A stretch of DNA of 43,759 bases from the NCBI GenBank assembly GCA_000004985.1, contig GG738949.1, one strand, 5' to 3'. Below are positions 2,990 to 43,759 of this stretch, in pieces. This DNA is from Naegleria gruberi. Its lineage: Eukaryota. The position numbers and the translations under genes were made by a program. The notes below the pieces were generated by a model. The model saw only the letters and a list, made by a program, of their open reading frames with translations, searched no databases and was not told where the DNA came from. The first letter of the stretch is position 1, and each line of letters begins with the position of its first letter.

Positions 2990-3651
2990 TTTTTACTGCG
3001 CAACAATCATGACTTTGAATTTTTAATTAAAAACGTTCATCTAAAAATAAAAAACAAACTACCACCGCCCTTTTTAAAGATTGTATCTCAATAATCTGCA
3101 ATAGCTTTGAGATTGCATTCAAAAGGAAGGTACTGAACAAGATATATTACAACATTTAGTAAATAAATTATATTTAATTTCTTACCTAAATTCATTGGCA
3201 TGATAGTAAGGATGAAGAAAATGAGGACGAGGAGAACATTATGATATTGTTGTTGTTGATGTTGTTGTAACATTTTTTAAGGCTATTAATATCATCATGT
3301 TCATGAACACAGGAGAATACAACGATTAAGCGCGCCCGAGTATATTTGTTTTGATGATATGGCTAAGGAAATAATATTTGTTCTGATGATTAATTAATTG
3401 TTATTGGTTGAGGAATTTAAACGATGGTGTGATGGTGGTAATGATATTAAATAACTGCCTTGGTTGAAGAGTTGATGATAGAGAGTGTGTTGAGTAAATT
3501 TGTGCAATCTATTCATGAAGATTTCTTCTCCGAAATGTATTTTGAGAATTGGTATTGGTATTATTAATCCATCATGATGAGAGCCACAAGCAGTTTTCAC
3601 TAATTTTTTAATTTGTTGTTTTTTGTTTAATTTTCATAACGGAAACAACCG

Positions 3652-8169: not shown

Positions 8170-8348
8170 TTTTTTTTGTAAATTTGTGAGTGTTGAACTT
8201 TTTTGTTCGAAATTAATGAATGAAAATTAGTAAAGAACTGTGAACTTTTGATGACGTAAAAGTAATCGTTGCAAACTAAACGATTCAACTTATTATTATT
8301 CAGATATGAATCTGTACATCCAATATTATTTAGTCTTCTCTTTCTCAT

Positions 8349-9440
8349 TTACCATTTTTTACTTTCACAAATTGAATCGACAATTGGGTGAATTTGGATG
8401 AGGAATTCGCTCAATTGCTCATTAAAAGATCCACTTCGCATACTACCCATTGCAGCAGCAATTCTGTTTTTCATGAGAGTTGGAGCGAATTCTGATGGAT
8501 TCTCTAAGGCACATTCAATTGCCATCTTGAATAAGGAAAAATTCTTCTGAGTACTATCGGTATGTATAATATCCAACAAGATTCTAAAAATGTTATCCTC
8601 TGTAATTGCCAACAACTTTTTGTGAATAGCTCTCACATGCACTGGTAAGGCAATCTTGGGGGAGAATAAACTTGAGAAGCATAAGGGAGTATGAGCTGCC
8701 TCTTTGACAATGCTTGGAGATGTTGCAAGATTTTCATACTCTTCCTCTTTCATCTCTACAAATAATGGATAGAGTGCTTCAAAAACTAACATGCAATCAC
8801 TTGGTTTATAGATCCACTTTGCTTGTCTGCATGCTTCACCAACTCTTTGAATAAGGTAGAAAAGAGGATTGGAAGATTTGTAAACTATTTGGAAAATATC
8901 ACAAATTGGTAAAAAGTGCCTTCTCATCTTTTTCAATGATTGCACTATTGAATGGCTCTTCTTTTTGAAATCCGCCATTGATAAGCTGGTATCAATAAAC
9001 AAGTGCACCGGAGAGAAATTCAAATAGTCACTTTTCAATTGTGAAAGAAAATTTTTGTTTTTCTGAATATCCATAATAATATCCACAATTTCAATCCTAA
9101 CATTCTGTATGGAACTGATTAAAAAATCATTACTGCTACAACAAATTTGTGTGATATTGGAGAGCTTAGAGTTCTTGGTTAAAAACTCTTTCAAAACACT
9201 GGAGATTCGATTGATGAAGAACCTGCGANNNNNNNNNNNNNNNNNNNNNNNNNNNNNNNNNNNNNNNNNNNNNNNNNNATGATCCGTTGAACATAATTGG
9301 GATATATTATTGAATGTTGCCAGAGATGTAAATAGCTGTTTAGTTTTTCCCACCACAATATGGCAAGATGAGAATTTTAAATTGGAACTAGTGAAGAGAG
9401 GAATTTTTCCACCTTCCTTTTTGAAACATTTTAATAGCAT
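8349..9440 (-). CDS. Hypothetical protein, ~363 aa, interrupted by a 50-N gap; no domain recognised
   Basis: Long ORF with an ATG at the complement of 9438-9440. The frame continues across the N block only by assumption about gap length. Composition is protein-like and probably helical. Confidence 0.45.
   Translation of the reverse strand: MLLKCFKKEGGKIPLFTSSNLKFSSCHIVVGKTKQLFTSLATFNNISQLCSTDHXXXXXXXXXXXXXXXXXRRFFINRISSVLKEFLTKNSKLSNITQICCSSNDFLISSIQNVRIEIVDIIMDIQKNKNFLSQLKSDYLNFSPVHLFIDTSLSMADFKKKSHSIVQSLKKMRRHFLPICDIFQIVYKSSNPLFYLIQRVGEACRQAKWIYKPSDCMLVFEALYPLFVEMKEEEYENLATSPSIVKEAAHTPLCFSSLFSPKIALPVHVRAIHKKLLAITEDNIFRILLDIIHTDSTQKNFSLFKMAIECALENPSEFAPTLMKNRIAAAMGSMRSGSFNEQLSEFLIQIHPIVDSICESKKW
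9229..9278. other. Assembly gap (50 N)
   Basis: Run of N. Confidence 0.99.
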
Positions 9441-22700: not shown

Positions 22701-24116
22701 NNNNNNNNNNNNNNNNNNNNNNNNNNNNNNNNNNNNNNNNNNNNNNNNNNNNNNNNNNNNNNNNNNNNNNNNNNNNNNNNNNNNNNNNNNNNNNNNNNNN
22801 NNNNNNNNNNNNNNNNNNNNNNNNNNNNNNNNNNNNNNNNNNNNNNNNNNNNNNNNNNNNNNNNNNNNNNNNNNNNNNNNNNNNNNNNNNNNNNNNNNNN
22901 NNNNNNNNNNNNNNNNNNNNNNNNNNNNNNNNNNNNNNNNNNNNNNNNNNNNNNNNNNNNNNNNNNNNNNNNNNNNNNNNNNNNNNNNNNNNNNNNNNNN
23001 NNNNNNNNNNNNNNNNNNNNNNNNNNNNNNNNNNNNNNNNNNNNNNNNNNNNNNNNNNNNNNNNNNNNNNNNNNNNNNNNNNNNNNNNNNNNNNNNNNNN
23101 NNNNNNNNNNNNNNNNNNNNNNNNNNNNNNNNNNNNNNNNNNNNNNNNNNNNNNNNNNNNNNNNNNNNNNNNNNNNNNNNNNNNNNNNNNNNNNNNNNNN
23201 NNNNNNNNNNNNNNNNNNNNNNNNNNNNNNNNNNNNNNNNNNNNNNNNNNNNNNNNNNNNNNNNNNNNNNNNNNNNNNNNNNNNNNNNNNNNNNNNNNNN
23301 NNNNNNNNNNNNNNNNNNNNNNNNNNNNNNNNNNNNNNNNNNNNNNNNNNNNNNNNNNNNNNNNNNNNNNNNNNNNNNNNNNNNNNNNNNNNNNNNNNNN
23401 NNNNNNNNNNNNNNNNNNNNNNNNNNNNNNNNNNNNNNNNNNNNNNNNNNNNNNNNNNNNNNNNNNNNNNNNNNNNNNNNNNNNNNNNNNNNNNNNNNNN
23501 NNNNNNNNNNNNNNNNNNNNNNNNNNNNNNNNNNNNNNNNNNNNNNNNNNNNNNNNNNNNNNNNNNNNNNNNNNNNNNNNNNNNNNNNNNNNNNNNNNNN
23601 NNNNNNNNNNNNNNNNNNNNNNNNNNNNNNNNNNNNNNNNNNNNNNNNNNNNNNNNNNNNNNNNNNNNNNNNNNNNNNNNNNNNNNNNNNNNNNNNNNNN
23701 NNNNNNNNNNNNNNNNNNNNNNNNNNNNNNNNNNNNNNNNNNNNNNNNNNNNNNNNNNNNNNNNNNNNNNNNNNNNNNNNNNNNNNNNNNNNNNNNNNNN
23801 NNNNNNNNNNNNNNNNNNNNNNNNNNNNNNNNNNNNNNNNNNNNNNNNNNNNNNNNNNNNNNNNNNNNNNNNNNNNNNNNNNNNNNNNNNNNNNNNNNNN
23901 NNNNNNNNNNNNNNNNNNNNNNNNNNNNNNNNNNNNNNNNNNNNNNNNNNNNNNNNNNNNNNNNNNNNNNNNNNNNNNNNNNNNNNNNNNNNNNNNNNNN
24001 NNNNNNNNNNNNNNNNNNNNNNNNNNNNNNNNNNNNNNNNNNNNNNNNNNNNNNNNNNNNNNNNNNNNNNNNNNNNNNNNNNNNNNNNNNNNNNNNNNNN
24101 NNNNNNNNNNNNNNNN
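10736..24116. other. Assembly gap (13,381 N)
   Basis: Run of N. All track ORFs of >4,000 aa are translations of this gap. Confidence 0.99.
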
Positions 24117-24975: not shown

Positions 24976-26252
24976 ATGTCACAAGATAAAGAAGACTCTC
25001 TCACTGAATGGTTGAACAATATTGTTGTTGCTATTGGTGAAGAAGACATTCCAAACAATAATCTTTTGCCTGTCACTGTCAGTGAGACATCAACAAACCA
25101 AACAGTTCCTGCAGGTGATAAGAAGGTTAGAAAGCGAAAGGAAACTAAACAACCACCATTCCCAAATATTCAATCAAGAGACATTTCTGACTTCACTAAC
25201 AGGCTAGTTTCGAATAATAACAAGTTGAGCAGCAAGGACCAACAACAAATAGATTTGTTAAAGATTGGGAAGGGTTTCGTTCAACACACCACTTGGACTA
25301 CTTCATCTGTTCTTAATGGGAAGAGAAAAGAAACTCTAGAAAATATTAGAAACTCAAAGAAGAAGAAGAAAGAAACAGTTGACNNNNNNNNNNNNNNNNN
25401 NNNNNNNNNNNNNNNNNNNNNNNNNNNNNNNNNNNNNNNNNNNNNNNNNNNNNNNTTACCATCGCAGAAGATACACCAGATTGGGAGTTGATTTTAGATA
25501 AGAGTGATGAATACCAACTATTCATTTCCAAAACACCGTATGTCTTCAATCAGGATACCATGATTGGCATGCAGTTAGCAAAAGCTTTCATCTATCTCCC
25601 TTACAATATCGATGACGTTTGGGCCTGTTGGTGGAATACTGACATTATGGAAAAGTTTGATCCAATGGTATTTAAGGGAAGGAAGCCACCTCCTCAACAA
25701 GATGATGCCTCAACAACAAAATCCAGTTTTTCTTACCAGAAACCAAATGGTGGTTATGCTCATTCTTTGAATGTCAGTAATATTAATTTCTTTCCAGTGA
25801 AGAGAACTCTTCACTATACATCAACGATGGTGAGAGATTCAGAGATTGATGCAATCTTGTTGATTGGACATTCGTCTGAGAATTTGAAAGAGGATTTTCC
25901 TGATGAGGAGATTGAACACAAATTATTGCAAGGATTCTTTTATTGGAGTTTGTTTAAGGTAAATGACAAGTTGACCAGAGTAATGATTTCAACGTATAGT
26001 GAAATTAACATTCCAATATTTTCGTCATTCTTTTACAAACAAATGGCGATTAAAAGGACGAAAAGTATAAGGAAATCAATGATGAAAGAATTGGATCGAT
26101 TAACAGATTGTGGACGAAAGAAAATGGATACTAGTTCATTTGTGGATGAATTGAATTTTAGGAAGTGTTTGGAAGAAAATTGTGTGAAATATCCGAATCG
26201 ATCATGGTATAAGGAATGGCTGGCTCTAAAGCAAAATCCAACTCAATTTTAA
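24976..26252 (+). CDS. START-like (StAR-related lipid-transfer / Bet v1 fold) domain protein, ~420 aa, spanning a 72-N gap
   Basis: ATG at 24976 in an 'aaaaaaaATG' context. The N-terminal part is low-complexity and basic. After the gap, DWELILDKSDEYQLFISK...AKAFIYLPYNIDDVWACWWNTDIMEKFDPMVFKG matches the opening of a START domain (Trp in the first beta strand, conserved W/D). A helical tail FFYKQMAIKRTKSIRKSMMKEL follows. Stop at 26250-26252. The two ORF pieces are in different frames only because of the gap length. Confidence 0.5.
25384..25455. other. Assembly gap (72 N)
   Basis: Run of N. Confidence 0.99.
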
Positions 26253-26409
26253 AAGAATTCCACTTTACAGAAAACTTAACATTTTGATGTGTTATTTTAA
26301 TTCATAAGAATGGAAGAACACTTATTGAGCTTGTCACAAATTTCTGCAAATGAAGGTCTTTCAACATCCTTGTCCCAACATTTTGTCATTATTTCACACA
26401 ACTCTTTCA
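26005..26409. repeat. Segmental duplication, copy A (~405 bp up to the gap). It carries the 3' 82 codons of the START-like gene, a 45-bp intergenic spacer and a minus-strand kinase 3' fragment.
   Basis: Direct repeat of 28051-28454 with about 9 mismatches and indels (~98% identity). Homology begins exactly at ttaacattcc (26005 / 28051). Confidence 0.85.
26297..26409 (-). pseudogene. Duplicated 3' fragment of the TKL kinase gene (last 37 codons ...KELCEIMTKCWDKDVERPSFAEICDKLNKCSSILMN*), truncated at the gap
   Basis: Identical at protein level to 28342-28452. Beyond the 50-N gap the minus strand no longer reads as kinase and is antisense to the LRR gene. Confidence 0.45.
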
Positions 26410-26459
26410 NNNNNNNNNNNNNNNNNNNNNNNNNNNNNNNNNNNNNNNNNNNNNNNNNN
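26410..26459. other. Assembly gap (50 N)
   Basis: Run of N. Confidence 0.99.
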
Positions 26460-27017
26460 GATGAGCTATATTGCTCAGCAGTTAATTCTACAGCTCGTTT
26501 ACAAGAATTAATTGTGGAAAAACCACTTGATTCCTCCCTCACAACACTTGATTTATCACAATGTTATGTTGGAGAAGTTTTTTTGAAAGCTCTTTCTTTG
26601 GGAGAATTCAAGAAATTGACTAAACTCTTACTATCTAATAATGAAATTGGAAATGAGGAAGTTCTGCTATTGGGAAAACTTTACATGCCGAATCTAGCTC
26701 ATCTCAATCTTGATGATAACCTAATTGGATTGGAAGGCGCTAACATCATTTCCAATTTTACTAATTTTCCTCATTTAGAATTTCTTTCCTGTAGAAAATA
26801 TCCCGCAACAAAACACAAAACCTTTGAAAGTTATTCATTGAATAATTTTCTTGAGGATTGCAGGGAGGAATTGGGAGAGGAATTAGAGGAGGAAGAAGAA
26901 GATTGTGAAGAGGATTATTATGGAGGTTTACGTAATTCGAAAGGAAAGGAAATTAGTTTTGTATCGTCGTTTGTTAGCTTTACTTGGACCAAAAGTGATT
27001 ATGTCTATGTCTATTAA
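26460..27017 (+). CDS. RNI-type leucine-rich-repeat protein, C-terminal 185 codons with an acidic tail; the 5' end is in a gap or unresolved
   Basis: LTTLDLSQCYVGEVFLKALSLGEFKKLTKLLLSNNEIGNEEVLLLGKLYMPNLAHLNLDDNLIGLEGANIISNF shows 28-29-residue RNI-like LRRs (L..L.L..N.IG.EG). An EELGEELEEEEEDCEED acidic stretch follows. Stop at 27015-27017. There is no in-frame Met before the repeats. Confidence 0.5.
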   Translation, partial: DELYCSAVNSTARLQELIVEKPLDSSLTTLDLSQCYVGEVFLKALSLGEFKKLTKLLLSNNEIGNEEVLLLGKLYMPNLAHLNLDDNLIGLEGANIISNFTNFPHLEFLSCRKYPATKHKTFESYSLNNFLEDCREELGEELEEEEEDCEEDYYGGLRNSKGKEISFVSSFVSFTWTKSDYVYVY

Positions 27018-27288
27018 TGAGCCATGGATTTCACTATGGAATTAGTTTGCATGTTCATTGAAACAGGAAAATTGAATTTTCAAAAATGTTTACAAGATAA
27101 TTATTTGAAATTTCCAATAATCTTGAATGAGATACACTACACGAAAATATCTTATGATTTCGAATAGCAACTGACTACTATTTTGGTAATACAGAACCGC
27201 AATAATGAACTTGCCAATTATTGTAACGTCGTTTAAATAAACCGACCAGTGCCACTACATTAAAGAGAGACATTTGACTTTAAAAAAA

Positions 27289-27897
27289 ATGAGACAAGAC
27301 AAGACAACATTCAACCCAGATAATTATTGTCTCGTCTATGAAGAGGTAATGACATGCCAAGAAACAAGAAATATCTTTAAAGAATTCTTGAAGGAAAACA
27401 TGGCGGAAGAACCACTTCTTTATTTGGACGAATGTGAAAAGTATAAAGTGGAATATGCCAAGTTGAAAGAGAAATTTCACGGTTTATCTTTGATGGTTAA
27501 AAGAAGTAGTAGTGTAGGAAATGTTTCTGATTTGGGAAACGAGACAAGTGGCAAGGAATGGGATAAAAATCAGTTGACTAAATTATTTGTGAATTTAAAA
27601 GGAATTATTGATGAGTTTATTGTGGAAGAGGCAACTAAGGAGTTGAATTTGAGTTCGGTTAGGCAGTGGACGATAATGGAGTGGCAGATAATAGAAGCAA
27701 TGATGAACGGATTCGAACAGGATTCGTCCAATTTGGAACTTTCGAATAATTTGTATAGGAAACTGGATATTAATGTGCTGTTTGAAAAGGTAGATTTAGT
27801 GGTTATGATAGATTTGAAAATGGATCAATTTCCTCGATTTATTCGTTCAAATTTAGCTCGAAAATTTCTATTAGAAAAGGGAGAACATTTCACATGA
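27289..27897 (+). CDS. RGS (regulator of G-protein signalling) domain protein, 202 aa
   Basis: ATG at 27289-27291 in an 'aaaaaaaATG' context. FNPDNYCLVYEEVMTCQETRNIFKEFLKENMAEEPLLYLDECEKYK matches the RGS N-terminal helix pattern (F..FL..E..EE.L.F....E.Y). The C-terminal MIDLKMDQFPRFIRSNLARKFL matches the RGS end (M..D.FPRF..S..Y). Confidence 0.8.
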   Translation: MRQDKTTFNPDNYCLVYEEVMTCQETRNIFKEFLKENMAEEPLLYLDECEKYKVEYAKLKEKFHGLSLMVKRSSSVGNVSDLGNETSGKEWDKNQLTKLFVNLKGIIDEFIVEEATKELNLSSVRQWTIMEWQIIEAMMNGFEQDSSNLELSNNLYRKLDINVLFEKVDLVVMIDLKMDQFPRFIRSNLARKFLLEKGEHFT

Positions 27898-28031
27898 ACT
27901 GTGGCAATCGATATTTCGAAAGGTTTCAAAGTTGATTTGAGATTTAAACCAAAAGATTTGAAAGATAAGGAAATTAATGACAATCACATTTATTTTGGTA
28001 TGTTAAATTGCAAAATTTTCATTGTTAACCA

Positions 28032-28298
28032 TTTTTAGGATTAACCATCGTTAACATTCCAATATTTTCGTCATTCTTTTACAAACAAATGGCGATGAAA
28101 AGGACGAAAAGTATAAGGAAATCAATGATGAAAGAATTGGATCGATTAACAGATTATGGACGAAAGAAAATGGATACTAGTTCATTTGTGGATGAATTGA
28201 ATTTTAGAAAGTGTTTGGAAGAAAATTGTGTGAAATATCCGAATCGATCATGGTATAAGGAGTGGCTGGCTCTAAAACAAAATCCAACTCAATTTTAA
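28032..28298 (+). pseudogene. Duplicated 3' fragment of the START-like gene (copy B), with no 5' part
   Basis: Codes ...NIPIFSSFFYKQMAMKRTKSIRKSMMKELDRLTDYGRKKMDTSSFVDELNFRKCLEENCVKYPNRSWYKEWLALKQNPTQF*, about 97% identical to the end of 24976-26252. The frame opens only 7 codons upstream of the duplication boundary. Confidence 0.5.
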
Positions 28299-28545
28299 AG
28301 AATTCCAATTTACAGAAAACTTAACATTTTGAAGTGTTATTTTAATTCATAAGAATGGAAGAACACTTATTGAGCTTGTCACAAATTTCTGCAAATGAAG
28401 GTCTTTCAACGTCCTTGTCCCAACATTTTGTCATTATTTCACACAACTCTTTCACAACAAGGGCAAGCTTCATCTCTGAATTACGAGAAGATCCAAAAAT
28501 TCCTCCCTTCTCATTTTCCATCAAAAAGGAATTGACATATTCCTT
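28051..28545. repeat. Segmental duplication, copy B. It continues into the 2.9-kb gap.
   Basis: See copy A. The spacing between copies is 2,046 bp, so the duplicated unit may include the LRR and RGS genes. Confidence 0.85.
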
Positions 28546-31500
28546 NNNNNNNNNNNNNNNNNNNNNNNNNNNNNNNNNNNNNNNNNNNNNNNNNNNNNNN
28601 NNNNNNNNNNNNNNNNNNNNNNNNNNNNNNNNNNNNNNNNNNNNNNNNNNNNNNNNNNNNNNNNNNNNNNNNNNNNNNNNNNNNNNNNNNNNNNNNNNNN
28701 NNNNNNNNNNNNNNNNNNNNNNNNNNNNNNNNNNNNNNNNNNNNNNNNNNNNNNNNNNNNNNNNNNNNNNNNNNNNNNNNNNNNNNNNNNNNNNNNNNNN
28801 NNNNNNNNNNNNNNNNNNNNNNNNNNNNNNNNNNNNNNNNNNNNNNNNNNNNNNNNNNNNNNNNNNNNNNNNNNNNNNNNNNNNNNNNNNNNNNNNNNNN
28901 NNNNNNNNNNNNNNNNNNNNNNNNNNNNNNNNNNNNNNNNNNNNNNNNNNNNNNNNNNNNNNNNNNNNNNNNNNNNNNNNNNNNNNNNNNNNNNNNNNNN
29001 NNNNNNNNNNNNNNNNNNNNNNNNNNNNNNNNNNNNNNNNNNNNNNNNNNNNNNNNNNNNNNNNNNNNNNNNNNNNNNNNNNNNNNNNNNNNNNNNNNNN
29101 NNNNNNNNNNNNNNNNNNNNNNNNNNNNNNNNNNNNNNNNNNNNNNNNNNNNNNNNNNNNNNNNNNNNNNNNNNNNNNNNNNNNNNNNNNNNNNNNNNNN
29201 NNNNNNNNNNNNNNNNNNNNNNNNNNNNNNNNNNNNNNNNNNNNNNNNNNNNNNNNNNNNNNNNNNNNNNNNNNNNNNNNNNNNNNNNNNNNNNNNNNNN
29301 NNNNNNNNNNNNNNNNNNNNNNNNNNNNNNNNNNNNNNNNNNNNNNNNNNNNNNNNNNNNNNNNNNNNNNNNNNNNNNNNNNNNNNNNNNNNNNNNNNNN
29401 NNNNNNNNNNNNNNNNNNNNNNNNNNNNNNNNNNNNNNNNNNNNNNNNNNNNNNNNNNNNNNNNNNNNNNNNNNNNNNNNNNNNNNNNNNNNNNNNNNNN
29501 NNNNNNNNNNNNNNNNNNNNNNNNNNNNNNNNNNNNNNNNNNNNNNNNNNNNNNNNNNNNNNNNNNNNNNNNNNNNNNNNNNNNNNNNNNNNNNNNNNNN
29601 NNNNNNNNNNNNNNNNNNNNNNNNNNNNNNNNNNNNNNNNNNNNNNNNNNNNNNNNNNNNNNNNNNNNNNNNNNNNNNNNNNNNNNNNNNNNNNNNNNNN
29701 NNNNNNNNNNNNNNNNNNNNNNNNNNNNNNNNNNNNNNNNNNNNNNNNNNNNNNNNNNNNNNNNNNNNNNNNNNNNNNNNNNNNNNNNNNNNNNNNNNNN
29801 NNNNNNNNNNNNNNNNNNNNNNNNNNNNNNNNNNNNNNNNNNNNNNNNNNNNNNNNNNNNNNNNNNNNNNNNNNNNNNNNNNNNNNNNNNNNNNNNNNNN
29901 NNNNNNNNNNNNNNNNNNNNNNNNNNNNNNNNNNNNNNNNNNNNNNNNNNNNNNNNNNNNNNNNNNNNNNNNNNNNNNNNNNNNNNNNNNNNNNNNNNNN
30001 NNNNNNNNNNNNNNNNNNNNNNNNNNNNNNNNNNNNNNNNNNNNNNNNNNNNNNNNNNNNNNNNNNNNNNNNNNNNNNNNNNNNNNNNNNNNNNNNNNNN
30101 NNNNNNNNNNNNNNNNNNNNNNNNNNNNNNNNNNNNNNNNNNNNNNNNNNNNNNNNNNNNNNNNNNNNNNNNNNNNNNNNNNNNNNNNNNNNNNNNNNNN
30201 NNNNNNNNNNNNNNNNNNNNNNNNNNNNNNNNNNNNNNNNNNNNNNNNNNNNNNNNNNNNNNNNNNNNNNNNNNNNNNNNNNNNNNNNNNNNNNNNNNNN
30301 NNNNNNNNNNNNNNNNNNNNNNNNNNNNNNNNNNNNNNNNNNNNNNNNNNNNNNNNNNNNNNNNNNNNNNNNNNNNNNNNNNNNNNNNNNNNNNNNNNNN
30401 NNNNNNNNNNNNNNNNNNNNNNNNNNNNNNNNNNNNNNNNNNNNNNNNNNNNNNNNNNNNNNNNNNNNNNNNNNNNNNNNNNNNNNNNNNNNNNNNNNNN
30501 NNNNNNNNNNNNNNNNNNNNNNNNNNNNNNNNNNNNNNNNNNNNNNNNNNNNNNNNNNNNNNNNNNNNNNNNNNNNNNNNNNNNNNNNNNNNNNNNNNNN
30601 NNNNNNNNNNNNNNNNNNNNNNNNNNNNNNNNNNNNNNNNNNNNNNNNNNNNNNNNNNNNNNNNNNNNNNNNNNNNNNNNNNNNNNNNNNNNNNNNNNNN
30701 NNNNNNNNNNNNNNNNNNNNNNNNNNNNNNNNNNNNNNNNNNNNNNNNNNNNNNNNNNNNNNNNNNNNNNNNNNNNNNNNNNNNNNNNNNNNNNNNNNNN
30801 NNNNNNNNNNNNNNNNNNNNNNNNNNNNNNNNNNNNNNNNNNNNNNNNNNNNNNNNNNNNNNNNNNNNNNNNNNNNNNNNNNNNNNNNNNNNNNNNNNNN
30901 NNNNNNNNNNNNNNNNNNNNNNNNNNNNNNNNNNNNNNNNNNNNNNNNNNNNNNNNNNNNNNNNNNNNNNNNNNNNNNNNNNNNNNNNNNNNNNNNNNNN
31001 NNNNNNNNNNNNNNNNNNNNNNNNNNNNNNNNNNNNNNNNNNNNNNNNNNNNNNNNNNNNNNNNNNNNNNNNNNNNNNNNNNNNNNNNNNNNNNNNNNNN
31101 NNNNNNNNNNNNNNNNNNNNNNNNNNNNNNNNNNNNNNNNNNNNNNNNNNNNNNNNNNNNNNNNNNNNNNNNNNNNNNNNNNNNNNNNNNNNNNNNNNNN
31201 NNNNNNNNNNNNNNNNNNNNNNNNNNNNNNNNNNNNNNNNNNNNNNNNNNNNNNNNNNNNNNNNNNNNNNNNNNNNNNNNNNNNNNNNNNNNNNNNNNNN
31301 NNNNNNNNNNNNNNNNNNNNNNNNNNNNNNNNNNNNNNNNNNNNNNNNNNNNNNNNNNNNNNNNNNNNNNNNNNNNNNNNNNNNNNNNNNNNNNNNNNNN
31401 NNNNNNNNNNNNNNNNNNNNNNNNNNNNNNNNNNNNNNNNNNNNNNNNNNNNNNNNNNNNNNNNNNTTCATCTCCACCTCTTCAAATATAACTCTTGTTG

Positions 31501-34552: not shown

Positions 34553-36370
34553 TTATTTCTTCTTTGGTATTTCACCATTAGATGAGGAAGTTCTCTTTCT
34601 CTTCTTTTCATAGGTTGAGTTATTCGTTTCAGTAGTGCTTAGTTTTGATTCATTTTTTTCTGGATTGGAATAAGCATCACGTATGGAAGGAAAGAAATAT
34701 GATCTATAATCTTGTGTATCGACTATATCTGTAATTCCAAGTAATGCCAAGCATTCTCTTGTGGTAGGTCTTTCCTTTCTTTCTATGGCCACCATTTGTT
34801 TAAGCATGTCAAATAGCATACTACCCTTATTGGGCTCTAGCTCGTGGCATTTGATTGAAATTGTTTGCCATATTTCATCAGCAGTATTTTCCAACCGTTT
34901 CTTATCTATATCATTTTCTAATATCAATTCAATAAAAACTAAACCAAGAGAGTAGATATCAGTTTTTGGATGAATAAAGTTTTTCCCTGTGGATTCCTTT
35001 TCAGGAGCATTGTAAGAAGAGGTTCCAGCAGTTGACTGTATCCACAAGTTTGCTAATTTGCAAGTATCACCATCTTCAATGTCAAAACGCTTGGCTAGTT
35101 CAAAATCAATGAATTTACAAAAACAGTTTGGGCCTTTTTTTTCGTGGGCATCTGTTTCCTTAATAACTAATGATTTTAAATGATCCTCCTCTAATATTAT
35201 AATATTACTAGGTTTAATGTCATTGTGAATTATCTTTCTTGAGTGAATGTGGTCAATTTCAAGCAGCAGTTGAGAAATAATGTGCAATTTTTCTTGATGT
35301 GATCGTTTGTTAAAAGTATTGAGCTCATCTCCTGCAATTGATATCTCGATATGTTCTTTACAAACCACATCATTCACAGTAACTCTGTCATGAAGAAGAA
35401 ATATATTTCCAATATCAAACCTTTCTGGTTTTTCTGAATGGAAAATCTTTACAAACACTGGTTGAGAGGAATGATCAAGCACACCATAGAACATGTCTTT
35501 GGTAGCAGTACCTCTTCCTTGACCAGTACTTATCTCGACAAGATACTCCTCAAGAGTGACAGTTGTTGTAAGCACTGTGTCTAATGATGTTGTGAGATGA
35601 ACCACCAACTTATCACCTTGTGAAATATCATATCCACTGACAATAGAACTTTCCATTCTCTTTCTTCCCATAGACGCTTTGGTAATTGTGTCGATAAGAA
35701 TGTTCTCTTCAAAAATAGCTTTTCTGCTTGCCTCTAGTAAGAATGAAATAAATGTGTCAAGTAATTGTTTCTCCTCTGTCGTTGAAGGGTCAAGTGGAAA
35801 CATCCCAACATTAAATAATTGATATTTGTATCTTTTCTTGATACGTGAAGTTTGTGGAACAAAAGCTTTAATTCCCAGCACACGAACAAACCTCTTCTCT
35901 GTCAGTAATCCATAGGTCACCAGTTTATCGATTTGGATTGCATGTTTTTCAGAGGGCTTTATGTTTTTGAGTAAAGTGCCATGAACCATTCTTATTAGAG
36001 CCACTACCTTCAAGAAATCAGGGTGAGCAGTCTCGAAGTCTACCTTGTCCTCATGCCCAAACTTTAGACGAACGTCTTTCTCATTCTTTAATTCTAATAC
36101 AGAAAAGTTATCAAGTGAAATAGTGCCCTGCAGTAAGTTTGCCACTTCCTTGCTGAGATATCTCGAGTTTTTTATCAAATTGCTGATAGAAACATTTCTT
36201 ATTTGTTCTGAGCTCAATAATGTTTGGTTAAAAAACTTACTCATTAATTTTGAAGCCGTAGAGAGTAGGTAGTTGTAATAGCTTGTGGTATTTAGTGTTA
36301 TTGGTATCCTCTCCCAAAGAATGCGTTTTGGTTGGATGTAAGCAATCGGATAAAAGTTGAAAAGCTGCAC
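34553..36370 (-). CDS. Protein kinase (non-RD, divergent motifs), at least 605 aa. The true 5' end probably extends upstream.
   Basis: Glycine loop STGQGRGTATKD, beta-3 Lys VFVKIF, catalytic loop HNDIKPSN (HRD to HND), DFE in place of DFG, APE motif SSYNAPE. The track start at 36370 is GTG preceded by TGA; the first in-frame ATG is 42 codons in. ORF 36237-36574 in another frame is open up to the gap and overlaps by 134 nt. Confidence 0.75.
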   Translation of the reverse strand: MQLFNFYPIAYIQPKRILWERIPITLNTTSYYNYLLSTASKLMSKFFNQTLLSSEQIRNVSISNLIKNSRYLSKEVANLLQGTISLDNFSVLELKNEKDVRLKFGHEDKVDFETAHPDFLKVVALIRMVHGTLLKNIKPSEKHAIQIDKLVTYGLLTEKRFVRVLGIKAFVPQTSRIKKRYKYQLFNVGMFPLDPSTTEEKQLLDTFISFLLEASRKAIFEENILIDTITKASMGRKRMESSIVSGYDISQGDKLVVHLTTSLDTVLTTTVTLEEYLVEISTGQGRGTATKDMFYGVLDHSSQPVFVKIFHSEKPERFDIGNIFLLHDRVTVNDVVCKEHIEISIAGDELNTFNKRSHQEKLHIISQLLLEIDHIHSRKIIHNDIKPSNIIILEEDHLKSLVIKETDAHEKKGPNCFCKFIDFELAKRFDIEDGDTCKLANLWIQSTAGTSSYNAPEKESTGKNFIHPKTDIYSLGLVFIELILENDIDKKRLENTADEIWQTISIKCHELEPNKGSMLFDMLKQMVAIERKERPTTRECLALLGITDIVDTQDYRSYFFPSIRDAYSNPEKNESKLSTTETNNSTYEKKRKRTSSSNGEIPKKK

Positions 36371-36574: not shown

Positions 36575-39500
36575 NNNNNNNNNNNNNNNNNNNNNNNNNN
36601 NNNNNNNNNNNNNNNNNNNNNNNNNNNNNNNNNNNNNNNNNNNNNNNNNNNNNNNNNNNNNNNNNNNNNNNNNNNNNNNNNNNNNNNNNNNNNNNNNNNN
36701 NNNNNNNNNNNNNNNNNNNNNNNNNNNNNNNNNNNNNNNNNNNNNNNNNNNNNNNNNNNNNNNNNNNNNNNNNNNNNNNNNNNNNNNNNNNNNNNNNNNN
36801 NNNNNNNNNNNNNNNNNNNNNNNNNNNNNNNNNNNNNNNNNNNNNNNNNNNNNNNNNNNNNNNNNNNNNNNNNNNNNNNNNNNNNNNNNNNNNNNNNNNN
36901 NNNNNNNNNNNNNNNNNNNNNNNNNNNNNNNNNNNNNNNNNNNNNNNNNNNNNNNNNNNNNNNNNNNNNNNNNNNNNNNNNNNNNNNNNNNNNNNNNNNN
37001 NNNNNNNNNNNNNNNNNNNNNNNNNNNNNNNNNNNNNNNNNNNNNNNNNNNNNNNNNNNNNNNNNNNNNNNNNNNNNNNNNNNNNNNNNNNNNNNNNNNN
37101 NNNNNNNNNNNNNNNNNNNNNNNNNNNNNNNNNNNNNNNNNNNNNNNNNNNNNNNNNNNNNNNNNNNNNNNNNNNNNNNNNNNNNNNNNNNNNNNNNNNN
37201 NNNNNNNNNNNNNNNNNNNNNNNNNNNNNNNNNNNNNNNNNNNNNNNNNNNNNNNNNNNNNNNNNNNNNNNNNNNNNNNNNNNNNNNNNNNNNNNNNNNN
37301 NNNNNNNNNNNNNNNNNNNNNNNNNNNNNNNNNNNNNNNNNNNNNNNNNNNNNNNNNNNNNNNNNNNNNNNNNNNNNNNNNNNNNNNNNNNNNNNNNNNN
37401 NNNNNNNNNNNNNNNNNNNNNNNNNNNNNNNNNNNNNNNNNNNNNNNNNNNNNNNNNNNNNNNNNNNNNNNNNNNNNNNNNNNNNNNNNNNNNNNNNNNN
37501 NNNNNNNNNNNNNNNNNNNNNNNNNNNNNNNNNNNNNNNNNNNNNNNNNNNNNNNNNNNNNNNNNNNNNNNNNNNNNNNNNNNNNNNNNNNNNNNNNNNN
37601 NNNNNNNNNNNNNNNNNNNNNNNNNNNNNNNNNNNNNNNNNNNNNNNNNNNNNNNNNNNNNNNNNNNNNNNNNNNNNNNNNNNNNNNNNNNNNNNNNNNN
37701 NNNNNNNNNNNNNNNNNNNNNNNNNNNNNNNNNNNNNNNNNNNNNNNNNNNNNNNNNNNNNNNNNNNNNNNNNNNNNNNNNNNNNNNNNNNNNNNNNNNN
37801 NNNNNNNNNNNNNNNNNNNNNNNNNNNNNNNNNNNNNNNNNNNNNNNNNNNNNNNNNNNNNNNNNNNNNNNNNNNNNNNNNNNNNNNNNNNNNNNNNNNN
37901 NNNNNNNNNNNNNNNNNNNNNNNNNNNNNNNNNNNNNNNNNNNNNNNNNNNNNNNNNNNNNNNNNNNNNNNNNNNNNNNNNNNNNNNNNNNNNNNNNNNN
38001 NNNNNNNNNNNNNNNNNNNNNNNNNNNNNNNNNNNNNNNNNNNNNNNNNNNNNNNNNNNNNNNNNNNNNNNNNNNNNNNNNNNNNNNNNNNNNNNNNNNN
38101 NNNNNNNNNNNNNNNNNNNNNNNNNNNNNNNNNNNNNNNNNNNNNNNNNNNNNNNNNNNNNNNNNNNNNNNNNNNNNNNNNNNNNNNNNNNNNNNNNNNN
38201 NNNNNNNNNNNNNNNNNNNNNNNNNNNNNNNNNNNNNNNNNNNNNNNNNNNNNNNNNNNNNNNNNNNNNNNNNNNNNNNNNNNNNNNNNNNNNNNNNNNN
38301 NNNNNNNNNNNNNNNNNNNNNNNNNNNNNNNNNNNNNNNNNNNNNNNNNNNNNNNNNNNNNNNNNNNNNNNNNNNNNNNNNNNNNNNNNNNNNNNNNNNN
38401 NNNNNNNNNNNNNNNNNNNNNNNNNNNNNNNNNNNNNNNNNNNNNNNNNNNNNNNNNNNNNNNNNNNNNNNNNNNNNNNNNNNNNNNNNNNNNNNNNNNN
38501 NNNNNNNNNNNNNNNNNNNNNNNNNNNNNNNNNNNNNNNNNNNNNNNNNNNNNNNNNNNNNNNNNNNNNNNNNNNNNNNNNNNNNNNNNNNNNNNNNNNN
38601 NNNNNNNNNNNNNNNNNNNNNNNNNNNNNNNNNNNNNNNNNNNNNNNNNNNNNNNNNNNNNNNNNNNNNNNNNNNNNNNNNNNNNNNNNNNNNNNNNNNN
38701 NNNNNNNNNNNNNNNNNNNNNNNNNNNNNNNNNNNNNNNNNNNNNNNNNNNNNNNNNNNNNNNNNNNNNNNNNNNNNNNNNNNNNNNNNNNNNNNNNNNN
38801 NNNNNNNNNNNNNNNNNNNNNNNNNNNNNNNNNNNNNNNNNNNNNNNNNNNNNNNNNNNNNNNNNNNNNNNNNNNNNNNNNNNNNNNNNNNNNNNNNNNN
38901 NNNNNNNNNNNNNNNNNNNNNNNNNNNNNNNNNNNNNNNNNNNNNNNNNNNNNNNNNNNNNNNNNNNNNNNNNNNNNNNNNNNNNNNNNNNNNNNNNNNN
39001 NNNNNNNNNNNNNNNNNNNNNNNNNNNNNNNNNNNNNNNNNNNNNNNNNNNNNNNNNNNNNNNNNNNNNNNNNNNNNNNNNNNNNNNNNNNNNNNNNNNN
39101 NNNNNNNNNNNNNNNNNNNNNNNNNNNNNNNNNNNNNNNNNNNNNNNNNNNNNNNNNNNNNNNNNNNNNNNNNNNNNNNNNNNNNNNNNNNNNNNNNNNN
39201 NNNNNNNNNNNNNNNNNNNNNNNNNNNNNNNNNNNNNNNNNNNNNNNNNNNNNNNNNNNNNNNNNNNNNNNNNNNNNNNNNNNNNNNNNNNNNNNNNNNN
39301 NNNNNNNNNNNNNNNNNNNNNNNNNNNNNNNNNNNNNNNNNNNNNNNNNNNNNNNNNNNNNNNNNNNNNNNNNNNNNNNNNNNNNNNNNNNNNNNNNNNN
39401 NNNNNNNNNNNNNNNNNNNNNNNNNNNNNNNNNNNNNNNNNNNNNNNNNNNNNNNNNNNNNNNNNNNNNNNNNNNNNNNNNNNNNNNNNNNNNNNNNNNN

Positions 39501-42319
39501 NNNNNNNNNNNNNNNNNNNNNNNNNNNNNNNNNNNNNNNNNNNNNNNNNNNNNNNNNNNNNNNNNNNNNNNNNNNNNNNNNNNNNNNNNNNNNNNNNNNN
39601 NNNNNNNNNNNNNNNNNNNNNNNNNNNNNNNNNNNNNNNNNNNNNNNNNNNNNNNNNNNNNNNNNNNNNNNNNNNNNNNNNNNNNNNNNNNNNNNNNNNN
39701 NNNNNNNNNNNNNNNNNNNNNNNNNNNNNNNNNNNNNNNNNNNNNNNNNNNNNNNNNNNNNNNNNNNNNNNNNNNNNNNNNNNNNNNNNNNNNNNNNNNN
39801 NNNNNNNNNNNNNNNNNNNNNNNNNNNNNNNNNNNNNNNNNNNNNNNNNNNNNNNNNNNNNNNNNNNNNNNNNNNNNNNNNNNNNNNNNNNNNNNNNNNN
39901 NNNNNNNNNNNNNNNNNNNNNNNNNNNNNNNNNNNNNNNNNNNNNNNNNNNNNNNNNNNNNNNNNNNNNNNNNNNNNNNNNNNNNNNNNNNNNNNNNNNN
40001 NNNNNNNNNNNNNNNNNNNNNNNNNNNNNNNNNNNNNNNNNNNNNNNNNNNNNNNNNNNNNNNNNNNNNNNNNNNNNNNNNNNNNNNNNNNNNNNNNNNN
40101 NNNNNNNNNNNNNNNNNNNNNNNNNNNNNNNNNNNNNNNNNNNNNNNNNNNNNNNNNNNNNNNNNNNNNNNNNNNNNNNNNNNNNNNNNNNNNNNNNNNN
40201 NNNNNNNNNNNNNNNNNNNNNNNNNNNNNNNNNNNNNNNNNNNNNNNNNNNNNNNNNNNNNNNNNNNNNNNNNNNNNNNNNNNNNNNNNNNNNNNNNNNN
40301 NNNNNNNNNNNNNNNNNNNNNNNNNNNNNNNNNNNNNNNNNNNNNNNNNNNNNNNNNNNNNNNNNNNNNNNNNNNNNNNNNNNNNNNNNNNNNNNNNNNN
40401 NNNNNNNNNNNNNNNNNNNNNNNNNNNNNNNNNNNNNNNNNNNNNNNNNNNNNNNNNNNNNNNNNNNNNNNNNNNNNNNNNNNNNNNNNNNNNNNNNNNN
40501 NNNNNNNNNNNNNNNNNNNNNNNNNNNNNNNNNNNNNNNNNNNNNNNNNNNNNNNNNNNNNNNNNNNNNNNNNNNNNNNNNNNNNNNNNNNNNNNNNNNN
40601 NNNNNNNNNNNNNNNNNNNNNNNNNNNNNNNNNNNNNNNNNNNNNNNNNNNNNNNNNNNNNNNNNNNNNNNNNNNNNNNNNNNNNNNNNNNNNNNNNNNN
40701 NNNNNNNNNNNNNNNNNNNNNNNNNNNNNNNNNNNNNNNNNNNNNNNNNNNNNNNNNNNNNNNNNNNNNNNNNNNNNNNNNNNNNNNNNNNNNNNNNNNN
40801 NNNNNNNNNNNNNNNNNNNNNNNNNNNNNNNNNNNNNNNNNNNNNNNNNNNNNNNNNNNNNNNNNNNNNNNNNNNNNNNNNNNNNNNNNNNNNNNNNNNN
40901 NNNNNNNNNNNNNNNNNNNNNNNNNNNNNNNNNNNNNNNNNNNNNNNNNNNNNNNNNNNNNNNNNNNNNNNNNNNNNNNNNNNNNNNNNNNNNNNNNNNN
41001 NNNNNNNNNNNNNNNNNNNNNNNNNNNNNNNNNNNNNNNNNNNNNNNNNNNNNNNNNNNNNNNNNNNNNNNNNNNNNNNNNNNNNNNNNNNNNNNNNNNN
41101 NNNNNNNNNNNNNNNNNNNNNNNNNNNNNNNNNNNNNNNNNNNNNNNNNNNNNNNNNNNNNNNNNNNNNNNNNNNNNNNNNNNNNNNNNNNNNNNNNNNN
41201 NNNNNNNNNNNNNNNNNNNNNNNNNNNNNNNNNNNNNNNNNNNNNNNNNNNNNNNNNNNNNNNNNNNNNNNNNNNNNNNNNNNNNNNNNNNNNNNNNNNN
41301 NNNNNNNNNNNNNNNNNNNNNNNNNNNNNNNNNNNNNNNNNNNNNNNNNNNNNNNNNNNNNNNNNNNNNNNNNNNNNNNNNNNNNNNNNNNNNNNNNNNN
41401 NNNNNNNNNNNNNNNNNNNNNNNNNNNNNNNNNNNNNNNNNNNNNNNNNNNNNNNNNNNNNNNNNNNNNNNNNNNNNNNNNNNNNNNNNNNNNNNNNNNN
41501 NNNNNNNNNNNNNNNNNNNNNNNNNNNNNNNNNNNNNNNNNNNNNNNNNNNNNNNNNNNNNNNNNNNNNNNNNNNNNNNNNNNNNNNNNNNNNNNNNNNN
41601 NNNNNNNNNNNNNNNNNNNNNNNNNNNNNNNNNNNNNNNNNNNNNNNNNNNNNNNNNNNNNNNNNNNNNNNNNNNNNNNNNNNNNNNNNNNNNNNNNNNN
41701 NNNNNNNNNNNNNNNNNNNNNNNNNNNNNNNNNNNNNNNNNNNNNNNNNNNNNNNNNNNNNNNNNNNNNNNNNNNNNNNNNNNNNNNNNNNNNNNNNNNN
41801 NNNNNNNNNNNNNNNNNNNNNNNNNNNNNNNNNNNNNNNNNNNNNNNNNNNNNNNNNNNNNNNNNNNNNNNNNNNNNNNNNNNNNNNNNNNNNNNNNNNN
41901 NNNNNNNNNNNNNNNNNNNNNNNNNNNNNNNNNNNNNNNNNNNNNNNNNNNNNNNNNNNNNNNNNNNNNNNNNNNNNNNNNNNNNNNNNNNNNNNNNNNN
42001 NNNNNNNNNNNNNNNNNNNNNNNNNNNNNNNNNNNNNNNNNNNNNNNNNNNNNNNNNNNNNNNNNNNNNNNNNNNNNNNNNNNNNNNNNNNNNNNNNNNN
42101 NNNNNNNNNNNNNNNNNNNNNNNNNNNNNNNNNNNNNNNNNNNNNNNNNNNNNNNNNNNNNNNNNNNNNNNNNNNNNNNNNNNNNNNNNNNNNNNNNNNN
42201 NNNNNNNNNNNNNNNNNNNNNNNNNNNNNNNNNNNNNNNNNNNNNNNNNNNNNNNNNNNNNNNNNNNNNNNNNNNNNNNNNNNNNNNNNNNNNNNNNNNN
42301 NNNNNNNNNNNNNNNNNNN
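36575..42319. other. Assembly gap (5,745 N)
   Basis: Run of N. Confidence 0.99.
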
Positions 42320-42936
42320 TATTGGCAGGTATCTGTTTGGAAGAGGTGTCATACTATTTTTTTTGTTGAGATTCGTTTTGTTATGCACTTCACCACTTGG
42401 ACTGTTAAGTCCATTCTCATTGGTCTCTTAGATTGAGTTATGGTTTGAATTTCTCATTTTTTGACATGAAGGACTAAACAGTGCTACAAAAAATTATGCT
42501 TTTTCTTTTAAAATGGAAATGATGGACAGTAATATCAACTATTTCATGAATGTGCTCTCATTTCCGTGTGCCGTTGTGGAGAAGACATTTTTTCATTTTT
42601 TGGTTGCAATCATTTCTTTGCAGAGTTGCGAAGCATAGGTACGCACCTGGGTGAAAAGGTTTGGGCAATTTTTTTGGATTTGAAAACTGTAAATAAATAA
42701 TGGCGCGGTGTTGTTAAAAAGAGGAATACTTACCATTAACCATTGTTTAAGAACTTACGAAACAAAATGTGAAATTATGAATATTTAACTAGGGCAAGTG
42801 CTTAACAATATTGTTTTCACTGCCATTTATACAATTTGTCAAGGTCTATTTTACTATTAGATCACAAATCAAGAATCATCGGAAGATTGCAAGAAGAGGA
42901 CTTTTAAGAGTTGGTAGTTGCTTGATAGAACACAAG

Positions 42937-43291
42937 TACTGTAATTCCCCAGCCGTAAGACTTACGCTCGGGTAAACAACAGAATAACCAAACACAAAAA
43001 AAAGTGTCGAAACCCTACCACTTGCGGACTACTAAATCAAATATTAGAAACCAATAAAAAAGATAATTTCTCCAAAGTGTTGTGTTTAATCTTGTTTATT
43101 AAAATATAATGTTGTTTTGAACTGGTTCGATATTTTGTTTCAGTGGTGCGCAGTTGAACAAAAACCATTTCAAAAACTATAATATTGGAACACAAACAAG
43201 CGACATGCCACTTGTTGTTGTTTCTTTTTTTTTAATTAAATTTAGAAAGTCTTATAGGATGAATGAGTCTTACGGCTGGGGTTTTACAGTA
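42937..43291. mobile_element. MITE-like non-autonomous element (~355 bp) bounded by 26-bp terminal inverted repeats
   Basis: Left arm 42937-42962 is tactgtaattccccagccgtaagact. The reverse complement of right arm 43266-43291 is tactgtaaaaccccagccgtaagact, 24 of 26 identical including a perfect 16-bp core CCCCAGCCGTAAGACT. The interior is AT-rich and non-coding, and the track ORF 43154-43402 is spurious. No obvious target-site duplication. Confidence 0.5.
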
Positions 43292-43411
43292 ATGACCTGC
43301 AAGCTTCCAGAAATTCAAAAGCAGTTAAAAACGACGTACAGAAAAATGAAACATCACCAACAGTCATTAATCAAGGAATCAATAACAACAATGGCGAATT
43401 AGTTTTCAATA

Positions 43412-43755
43412 ATGGACGAAACAGACACTTTACTGCCAATAATTACAAAGTTCTCTATGAAGAATTGATGAACAACCCAAAAGGAAGAGAAATCTTTCAG
43501 AAATATCTGAAAACTGAAGCATGCAGTGAAGAGCCAATTCTTTTCCTTAATGAAATGGATGAATTACGAGTCTAATATAACAAGATTAACAATTCTAATG
43601 AAATTTCATTGAAGAAATATTTGGAGAAATTGTTTCGTATGGTTGAGAAATTCATCAGAGAGAAGAGTAATACTGAATTAAATCTTCAAGAAGCTCAACA
43701 GGAAAAAGTATTGAGGAAAATTGATGAAGAAATTGAACCACAATTTCAAGAATAG
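43412..43755 (+). pseudogene. Disrupted paralog of the RGS gene at 27289-27897. It has an in-frame TAA at 43573-43575 and a 1-nt frameshift after the start codon.
   Basis: The RGS frame reads ...RHFTANNYKVLYEELMNNPKGREIFQKYLKTEACSEEPILFLNEMDELRV*YNKINNSNEISLKKYLEKLFRMVEKFIREKSNTELNLQEAQQ..., parallel to TTFNPDNYCLVYEEVMTCQETRNIFKEFLKENMAEEPLLYLDECEKYKVEY...ELNLSS in the intact gene. The only ATG (43412) is in the +1 frame (MDETDTLLPI...). Stop TAG at 43753-43755. Confidence 0.5.
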
Positions 43756-43759
43756 TGAT

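What the first reader, a model, noticed from the sequence alone, without database searches (positions are those of the whole stretch)
42937..43291. MITE-like element with 26-bp terminal inverted repeats immediately upstream of a disrupted RGS paralog
TACTGTAATTCCCCAGCCGTAAGACT at 42937-42962 and its near-perfect reverse complement at 43266-43291 (24/26, with a perfect 16-bp core) enclose ~300 bp of AT-rich non-coding DNA. This is the signature of a miniature inverted-repeat transposable element. The GC-rich core stands out against the local composition. It lies ~120 bp upstream of the start codon of the RGS pseudogene, so the insertion may have affected that gene's promoter.
Basis: seen in the sequence. 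Interest (0 to 1): 0.55.

Follow-up and report, generated by a model that had tools for sequence, protein, structure and literature searches.

The report
Possible small transposon relic in Naegleria
A 355-bp non-coding stretch bounded by a real 26-bp inverted repeat lies upstream of a broken RGS gene copy in Naegleria gruberi; it looks like a small non-autonomous DNA transposon, but I could not count its copies in the genome, so it remains an ordinary, unproven candidate.

Summary
Arms at 42937-42962 and 43266-43291 are 24/26 complementary with a perfect 16-bp core. They enclose 303 bp of 30% GC DNA that encodes nothing recognisable. It is the strongest inverted repeat in the window, and shuffled sequence never produces one like it.

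The window is a complete, gap-ridden (55% N) scaffold of Naegleria gruberi. The element sits on a 1,440-bp terminal contig.

Features that fit a MITE:
- Complementarity stops exactly at TA...TA.
- The interior is neither palindromic nor more structured than shuffles.
- There is no Rfam, tRNA, protein, E. coli or plasmid match.
- The neighbouring RGS remnant is degenerate: its ATG is out of frame and it has two in-frame stops.

The defining MITE property, several dispersed copies, could not be tested. No second copy was found in the other 18.3 kb of the scaffold, in 8.3 kb from a near-identical Naegleria strain, or in the viral, JGI metagenome and prokaryote collections.

My best reading is a Tc1/mariner-style, TA-flanked non-autonomous element, with confidence about 0.55. 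An isolated, immobile inverted repeat is the main rival. A piggyBac or Kolobok type is excluded because there is no TTAA. Interest is low.

The parts
42937..42938 (.). TA dinucleotide at the left end. It is either a putative target-site duplication or the outermost 2 bp of the inverted repeat; a palindromic dinucleotide cannot tell these apart.
   Evidence: Sequence. Complementarity stops here: CAAG on the left versus ATGA on the right are not complementary.
42939..42962 (+). Left terminal inverted repeat proper, CTGTAATTCCCCAGCCGTAAGACT.
42963..43265 (.). Interior of 303 bp at 30.4% GC. It is non-coding, not palindromic, and has no excess secondary structure.
   Evidence: stops in all six frames; longest ORF 52 aa. 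(no protein homologue). (left half versus reverse complement of right half scores 19; shuffles 18.2 +/- 2.6). (RNA z-scores -0.82 and +0.21). (no Rfam family, no tRNA).
43266..43289 (-). Right terminal inverted repeat proper; its reverse complement is CTGTAAAACCCCAGCCGTAAGACT.
43290..43291 (.). TA dinucleotide at the right end (putative target-site duplication).
   Evidence: Sequence.
43412..43755 (+). Degenerate RGS-domain remnant. The ATG at 43412 is in a frame that stops at 43466-43468. The RGS frame is open from 43267 and carries an in-frame TAA at 43573-43575 and a TAG at 43753-43755. The scaffold ends at 43759.
   Evidence: Pfam RGS E=2.2e-5, 25.3 bits against a cut-off of 23.9. (aligns to residues 23-146 of the translated intact-paralog ORF 27241-27894). 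(nearest relatives about 50% identical; four of the five checked carry an RGS domain). (no predicted protein anywhere matches this contig).

Best explanation
The 355-bp unit is a non-autonomous cut-and-paste DNA transposon (a MITE, or a decayed single relic of one) in the nuclear genome of Naegleria gruberi. In this model a DDE transposase encoded elsewhere binds the two 24-bp terminal inverted repeats, excises the element, and reinserts it at a TA dinucleotide, which is duplicated. This is Tc1/mariner-type behaviour, as in Stowaway-like MITEs. Shown: the repeat itself, its sharp TA-bounded ends, the lack of coding capacity, and the lack of interior structure. Inferred: mobility, TA as a true target-site duplication, and the existence of a matching transposase. 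The element lies in non-coding DNA 121 nt upstream of the ATG of a decayed RGS paralog. Nothing shows that it caused that decay.
For: The inverted repeat is 24/26 with a perfect 16-bp core and does not occur in shuffles. It is the strongest such repeat in the scaffold. Complementarity ends exactly at TA...TA; the flanks beyond and the interior are not complementary above shuffle level. That pattern suits transposon termini better than a decayed inverted duplication. The size (355 bp), AT-rich interior (30% GC) and relatively GC-rich termini are typical of MITEs. There is no ORF over 52 aa inside and no protein homologue in 5.8 billion sequences. There is no Rfam family or tRNA, and the interior folds no better than shuffles. 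So the only signal is the pair of termini. It is not bacterial or vector DNA. The host genome carries DNA transposons: a piggyBac-type transposase ORF lies on this scaffold, and the literature reports MuDR and Kolobok in Naegleria (PMC3164196, PMC9587614).
Against: No second copy was seen anywhere. There is none at up to 9 of 26 mismatches in the other 18.3 kb of the scaffold. There is none in the two contigs (8.3 kb) from a Naegleria strain that is 97-99% identical where its contig L001 overlaps the window. There is none in the viral, JGI metagenome or prokaryote collections; the single two-arm pattern hit, L002, is an unrelated GC-rich palindrome. These samples are far too small to exclude a family in a 41-Mb genome, but they give no positive support. 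TA flanks are weak evidence, because a palindromic dinucleotide is indistinguishable from two more bases of the repeat and is common in AT-rich DNA. The termini (CTGTAA...) match no consensus I know, neither Tc1 CAGT nor Stowaway CTCCCTCC (from my own knowledge, not tested here). Classified TE content in N. gruberi is low: 0.28% in bioRxiv 10.64898/2026.06.24.734286 and 5.1% total repeats in PMC6125883. No Tc1/mariner transposase was found on the scaffold.
Confidence: 0.55

Rival explanations
1. It is an isolated, single-copy inverted repeat that is not and never was mobile. It could be the surviving ends of a local inverted duplication or template-switch event, or a cis-acting cruciform or protein-binding pair in the upstream region of the RGS gene.
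For: Only one copy is observed in everything that could be searched. N. gruberi has few classified TEs. TA ends carry little information.
Against: The boundaries are sharp, and there is no residual complementarity in the interior or flanks. That is unexpected for a decayed inverted duplication. Template-switch repeats usually have short spacers rather than 303 nt (general knowledge). A regulatory role for a degenerate gene is unlikely.
Confidence: 0.3
2. It is a transcribed long-hairpin or structured non-coding RNA whose 26-bp terminal stem is the functional feature, for example a small-RNA precursor.
For: The whole unit folds far better than shuffles: RNA z=-7.3 and DNA z=-4.8.
Against: The whole excess comes from the terminal stem; the 299-nt interior gives z=-0.82 and +0.21 on the two strands. 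No Rfam match comes near a gathering score. No homologues exist to test covariation. A 303-nt unstructured loop is atypical for hairpin RNA genes.
Confidence: 0.05
3. It is a non-autonomous derivative of a TTAA-targeting family present in Naegleria. Candidates are piggyBac, like the transposase ORF at 1220-2992, or Kolobok.
For: A DDE_Tnp_1_7 ORF (E=7e-44) lies on the same scaffold. The repeat contains a CCCC/GGGG block reminiscent of piggyBac CCC...GGG ends.
Against: No TTAA flanks either the outer ends (CAAG|TA...TA|ATGA) or the CCCC block (AATT|CCCC...GGGG|TTTT). Eight more perfectly complementary bases lie outside the CCCC block. The repeat has no match near the transposase ORF. Kolobok ends are 5'-RR...YY-3' with TTAA (PMC9587614), which is not seen here.
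Confidence: 0.03
4. It is an assembly or cloning artefact on a low-coverage terminal contig of a draft Sanger assembly.
For: The element sits on a 1,440-bp contig at the end of a scaffold that is 55% gaps. The scaffold also shows a duplicated 405-bp segment next to a gap.
Against: There is no similarity to E. coli genomes, plasmids or prokaryote genomes. Chimeric joins do not create 26-bp inverted repeats 303 nt apart. Composition matches the host, about 30-35% GC.
Confidence: 0.05

Closest known systems
Stowaway-like / Tc1-mariner-derived MITEs (TA target-site duplication)
   Same: Small size (355 bp), no coding capacity, AT-rich interior, terminal inverted repeats of about 24 bp, TA at both ends, and location in non-coding DNA close to a gene.
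   Different: The termini (CTGTAA...) do not match the Stowaway CTCCCTCC or Tc1 CAGT consensus (recalled from knowledge). No family, autonomous partner or empty site has been shown. The organism is a heterolobosean, for which I found no described MITE in the searchable literature.
piggyBac-family elements (a transposase ORF of this type is at window 1220-2992)
   Same: Both are cut-and-paste DNA transposons with short TIRs. The family is present on the same scaffold.
   Different: There is no TTAA duplication, the CCC...GGG motif is not at the termini, and the repeat is not found next to the transposase ORF.
Kolobok elements reported in Naegleria
   Same: Both are DNA transposons with TIRs, and Kolobok is known from this genus (PMC9587614).
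   Different: Kolobok makes TTAA duplications and has 5'-RR...YY-3' ends. This element has TA and 5'-CT...AG-3' ends.

Membership tests
MITE (generic) | Short (under about 800 bp) with no coding capacity | tested here: met
   The unit is 355 bp with stops in all six frames; the longest internal ORF is 52 aa. A six-frame query found no homologue among 5.8 billion proteins.
MITE (generic) | Terminal inverted repeats | tested here: met
   26 nt, 24/26, perfect 16-bp core; no occurrence in shuffles.
MITE (generic) | Similarity ends sharply at the termini; flanks are unrelated | tested here: met
   The 200-bp flanks and the interior halves show no complementarity above shuffle level.
MITE (generic) | Target-site duplication flanking the TIRs | tested here: inconclusive
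   TA is present at both ends. A palindromic 2-bp duplication cannot be told apart from two more bases of the repeat, and no longer direct repeat is present.
MITE (generic) | Multiple dispersed copies in the same genome | not testable with these tools
   The N. gruberi genome could not be fetched. No copy was found in the rest of the scaffold, in 8.3 kb from a near-identical strain, or in the public collections scanned.
MITE (generic) | Autonomous element with matching TIRs, or insertion polymorphism (an empty site) | not testable with these tools
   The only transposase on the scaffold is piggyBac-type and lacks these TIRs. The near-identical copy of this region on a 665-kb scaffold could not be retrieved.
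Tc1/mariner-derived (Stowaway-like) MITE | TA target-site duplication | tested here: inconclusive
   TA...TA is present but uninformative on a single copy.
Tc1/mariner-derived (Stowaway-like) MITE | Family-typical terminal motif (CTCCCTCC for Stowaway; CAGT/CAGG for Tc1/mariner) | tested here: not met
   The termini read CTGTAATT / CTGTAAAA. The consensus motifs are recalled from established knowledge, not from a database search.
piggyBac / Kolobok non-autonomous element | TTAA target-site duplication | tested here: not met
   The flanks are CAAG|TA and TA|ATGA. Next to the CCCC block the bases are AATT and TTTT. The Kolobok definition is from PMC9587614.
Known structured RNA family (Rfam) | Covariance-model match at gathering score, or structure beyond the terminal stem | tested here: not met
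   The best Rfam hit scores 22.5 bits against a gathering score of 65. Interior z-scores are -0.82 and +0.21.
RGS-domain gene (neighbour) | RGS domain present and reading frame intact | tested here: not met
   The domain is recognisable (Pfam E=2.2e-5; relatives are RGS proteins). But the ATG at 43412 is out of frame, and TAA 43573-43575 and TAG 43753-43755 are in frame. No gene model exists for it.

The most novel reading that the evidence does not exclude
The element is one member of a recently active, TA-targeting MITE family in Naegleria gruberi. That would be the first MITE family recognised in Heterolobosea. It would imply a still-functional Tc1/mariner- or pogo-like transposase in a genome regarded as almost free of transposons, and could offer a starting point for a transposon tool in Naegleria.
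Probability: 0.3. Interest if true: 0.3.

Novelty: new member of a known kind. Interest (0 to 1): 0.15.

Why it matters
If confirmed as a family, it would add a small DNA transposon to the sparse TE catalogue of Naegleria and help repeat-masking and gene annotation there. It would also point to a transposase that may still be active. A MITE next to a pseudogene is routine eukaryotic genome content, though. It opens no long-standing question, and nothing here suggests a new mechanism.

Tried and rejected
**Reaching the N. gruberi genome.** The look-up of encoding contigs had no record for the N. gruberi proteins I tried: two NCBI proteins (P0001, P0002) and the window's piggyBac-like ORF. Only contigs from ENA metagenome ERZ929261, which holds a Naegleria strain, could be fetched: L001 (97-99% identical where it overlaps the window) and L003. 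Neither contains the repeat.

**Using called ORFs as a proxy for DNA copies.**
- A six-frame translation of the element gave no hit.
- A six-frame translation of both flanks, 42320-42936 and 43292-43759, gave no hit.
- So there is no called ORF from this contig, from an orthologous locus, or from another copy in the database. This test has low power.

**Pattern scans.**
- The 22-base TIR pattern found nothing in viral contigs, and the 20-base pattern found nothing in JGI metagenomes or prokaryote genomes.
- The two-arm pattern gave one hit, L002. It is a GC-rich long palindrome sharing only CAGCCGTAAGACTT and has no other similarity to the window, so I rejected it as unrelated. The same pattern found nothing in viral contigs.

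**Literature.**
- Literal strings from the repeat returned nothing.
- 'Naegleria' with 'miniature inverted' returned one paper, found only by term co-occurrence and not opened.
- The N. gruberi genome paper is not held.

**In-window empty-site comparison.** This failed because the remnant and the intact RGS paralog share no DNA similarity.

**Alternative identities rejected.**
- Structured RNA.
- tRNA-derived element.
- piggyBac or Kolobok type, because there is no TTAA.
- E. coli IS or vector artefact.
- Insertion into coding sequence: the reconstructed empty site has stops in all frames just upstream.

Full report
**Where the window comes from.** The ORF at 27241-27894 is 100% identical to a 'predicted protein [Naegleria gruberi]', whose only contig is 43,759 bp long. 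So the window is one complete scaffold of the N. gruberi draft genome. N runs make up 24,011 of its 43,759 bases, in seven blocks of 50 to 13,381 bases, typical of scaffold gaps. The finding lies on the last contig, 42320-43759. That contig is only 1,440 bp long and follows a 5,745-bp gap.

**Checking the observation.** The inverted repeat is exactly as described. The arms are 42937-42962 and 43266-43291, 26 nt each, 24/26 complementary, and 303 nt apart. The 16-mer CCCCAGCCGTAAGACT is perfect in both arms. Shuffled sequence produced no match to the 26-mer at up to 3 mismatches. In my own census of inverted repeats it is the longest in the scaffold; the next best are 20-21 nt with 2-4 mismatches. 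The two mismatches are adjacent (AATT versus AAAA). The interior is 30.4% GC.

**Anatomy of the unit.**
- Complementarity ends exactly at TA on both sides (CAAG|TA...TA|ATGA).
- Aligning 200 bp of left flank against the reverse complement of the right flank gives nothing above the shuffle level. The same holds for the two halves of the interior (score 19 against 18.2 +/- 2.6).
- So this is a pair of sharply bounded termini, not a decayed long palindrome.
- The interior has stops in all six frames, and the longest ORF inside is 52 aa.
- A six-frame translation found no homologue among 5.8 billion proteins.
- No tRNA was found, and no Rfam family comes near threshold (best 22.5 bits against a gathering score of 65).
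- The whole unit folds much better than shuffles: DNA z=-4.8 and RNA z=-7.3.
- The interior alone does not: z=-0.82 on the + strand and +0.21 on the - strand. The terminal stem is therefore the only structural signal.

**The neighbouring gene.**
- The frame that opens at 43267 carries a weak but above-threshold Pfam RGS match (E=2.2e-5, 25.3 bits against a cut-off of 23.9).
- It aligns to residues 23-146 of the translated ORF (27241-27894) of the intact paralog.
- An exhaustive HMMER search with 53 residues of it found only about 50%-identical relatives. Four of the five I checked carry RGS domains.
- The RGS frame has no upstream ATG. It contains an in-frame TAA (43573-43575, where the intact paralog has Glu) and ends in TAG TGA just before the scaffold end.
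- No predicted protein in the database matches any frame of this contig, so it has no gene model.
- 'Disrupted RGS paralog' is therefore reasonable. The caveat is that a 1.4-kb terminal contig of a Sanger draft could carry sequencing errors.
- Removing the element plus one TA does not restore any ORF across the site. The element therefore sits in non-coding DNA and did not interrupt the gene.

**Searching for more copies.** This is the decisive test for a MITE, and I could not perform it properly.
- N. gruberi proteins are not on record in the look-up of encoding contigs, and no DNA collection on offer contains this genome.
- Within reach, everything was negative.
  - No second site at up to 3 mismatches in the window.
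  - No site at up to 9 of 26 mismatches in the other 18.3 kb, where shuffles give best matches of 7-11 mismatches.
  - Nothing in the viral, JGI metagenome or prokaryote collections with 20-22-base TIR patterns.
  - Nothing in papers.
- A two-arm pattern gave one metagenome hit, L002. It is a GC-rich, roughly 37-bp-armed palindrome sharing only CAGCCGTAAGACTT and has no other similarity to the window. I treat it as coincidence.
- The protein cluster of the intact RGS gene revealed two useful facts.
  - A 98%-identical N. gruberi protein lies on a 665-kb scaffold. This small scaffold is therefore a haplotig or a recent duplicate of part of a large one.
  - An ENA metagenome (ERZ929261) contains a Naegleria strain that is 97-99% identical to the window over contig L001.
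- Two contigs of that strain, L001 and L003 (8.3 kb together), hold no copy.
- These samples are a tiny fraction of a 40.9-Mb genome. They neither support nor exclude a family.

**Artefact and other-family checks.**
- The unit has no similarity to E. coli genomes or plasmids. It is not a cloning-host IS or vector fragment.
- It is not a piggyBac or Kolobok derivative. There is no TTAA at the outer ends or beside the internal CCCC block.
- The repeat does not occur near the piggyBac-type transposase ORF at 1220-2992.
- Kolobok's TTAA and RR...YY ends (PMC9587614) are absent.

**Interpretation.** A sharply bounded, TA-flanked pair of 24-bp inverted repeats around about 300 bp of AT-rich non-coding DNA is what a Tc1/mariner-mobilised MITE looks like. 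In eukaryotic genomes most such structures are transposon-derived (general knowledge). Naegleria carries DNA transposons: piggyBac on this scaffold, and MuDR and Kolobok in the literature. Against this, its classified TE content is very low: 0.28% in one survey and 5.1% total repeats in another. The termini match no consensus I know, and multi-copy status is untested. I put about 0.55 on a non-autonomous TIR transposon, either a family member or a lone relic. I put about 0.3 on an isolated, immobile inverted repeat. The remainder goes to hairpin RNA, a TTAA-family element and artefact.

**Verdict.** A single BLASTN against the full N. gruberi assembly, plus inspection of the near-duplicate region on the 665-kb scaffold for an empty TA site, would settle it.

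Noticed in passing
window 1-43759: The window is a complete 43,759-bp scaffold of Naegleria gruberi. 55% of it is N in seven gap blocks (3652-5443, 9229-9278, 10736-24116, 25384-25455, 26410-26459, 28546-31466, 36575-42319). Only about 19.7 kb is real sequence.
   Followed up: yes
window 1220-2992 (- strand): There is an uninterrupted 590-aa ORF with a full-length piggyBac-type transposase domain (DDE_Tnp_1_7, E=7e-44, profile 2-349 of 349). I saw no convincing TIRs or TTAA-flanked CCC...GGG ends in the 500-650 bp on either side. It may be a domesticated or partly decayed copy. Its copy number in the genome is unknown.
   Followed up: partly
window 26005-26409 and 28051-28454: A 405-bp direct duplication at 97.8% identity. 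The first copy abuts a 50-N gap. In the related metagenome contig L001 the order is LRR gene, RGS gene, then this segment. The scaffold therefore holds either a tandem repeat of a roughly 2.6-kb unit or a mis-join of haplotypes.
   Followed up: partly
window 27289-27894 (P0001) versus P0002: The intact RGS protein (XP_002668812) has a 98%-identical counterpart (XP_002680262, 164 aa) on a 665,159-bp N. gruberi scaffold. This suggests the small scaffold is an alternative haplotype or a recent segmental duplicate of a region in a large scaffold.
   Followed up: partly
L001 (4186 bp) and L003 (4106 bp), ENA assembly ERZ929261, run ERR1078381, project PRJEB11402: This public metagenome assembly contains contigs of a Naegleria strain; L001 is 97-99% identical to N. 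gruberi NEG-M over 25458-28545. It could serve for empty-site or filled-site comparisons.
   Followed up: partly
L002 4320-4335 and 5421-5770 (JGI metagenome contig Ga0222713_10016289): This is a GC-rich element with roughly 37-bp perfect inverted arms (CCCGAGGTCGGCAGCCGTAAGACTTGACCGGCGAAGC) about 275 bp apart. It is flanked by inverted tandem repeats (CCATACCCACA units), and a third copy of the CGGCAGCCGTAAGACT motif lies 1.1 kb upstream. It is unrelated to the window apart from a shared 14-mer, and its nature is unknown.
   Followed up: no
window 5446-7176 (+), 7243-8226 (-), 34556-36370 (-): These are long intron-free ORFs. One is an NHL-repeat/EGF teneurin-like membrane protein, one an endonuclease/exonuclease/phosphatase-family protein, and one a protein kinase. 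They look like ordinary host genes and show that the scaffold is not purely repetitive.
   Followed up: no
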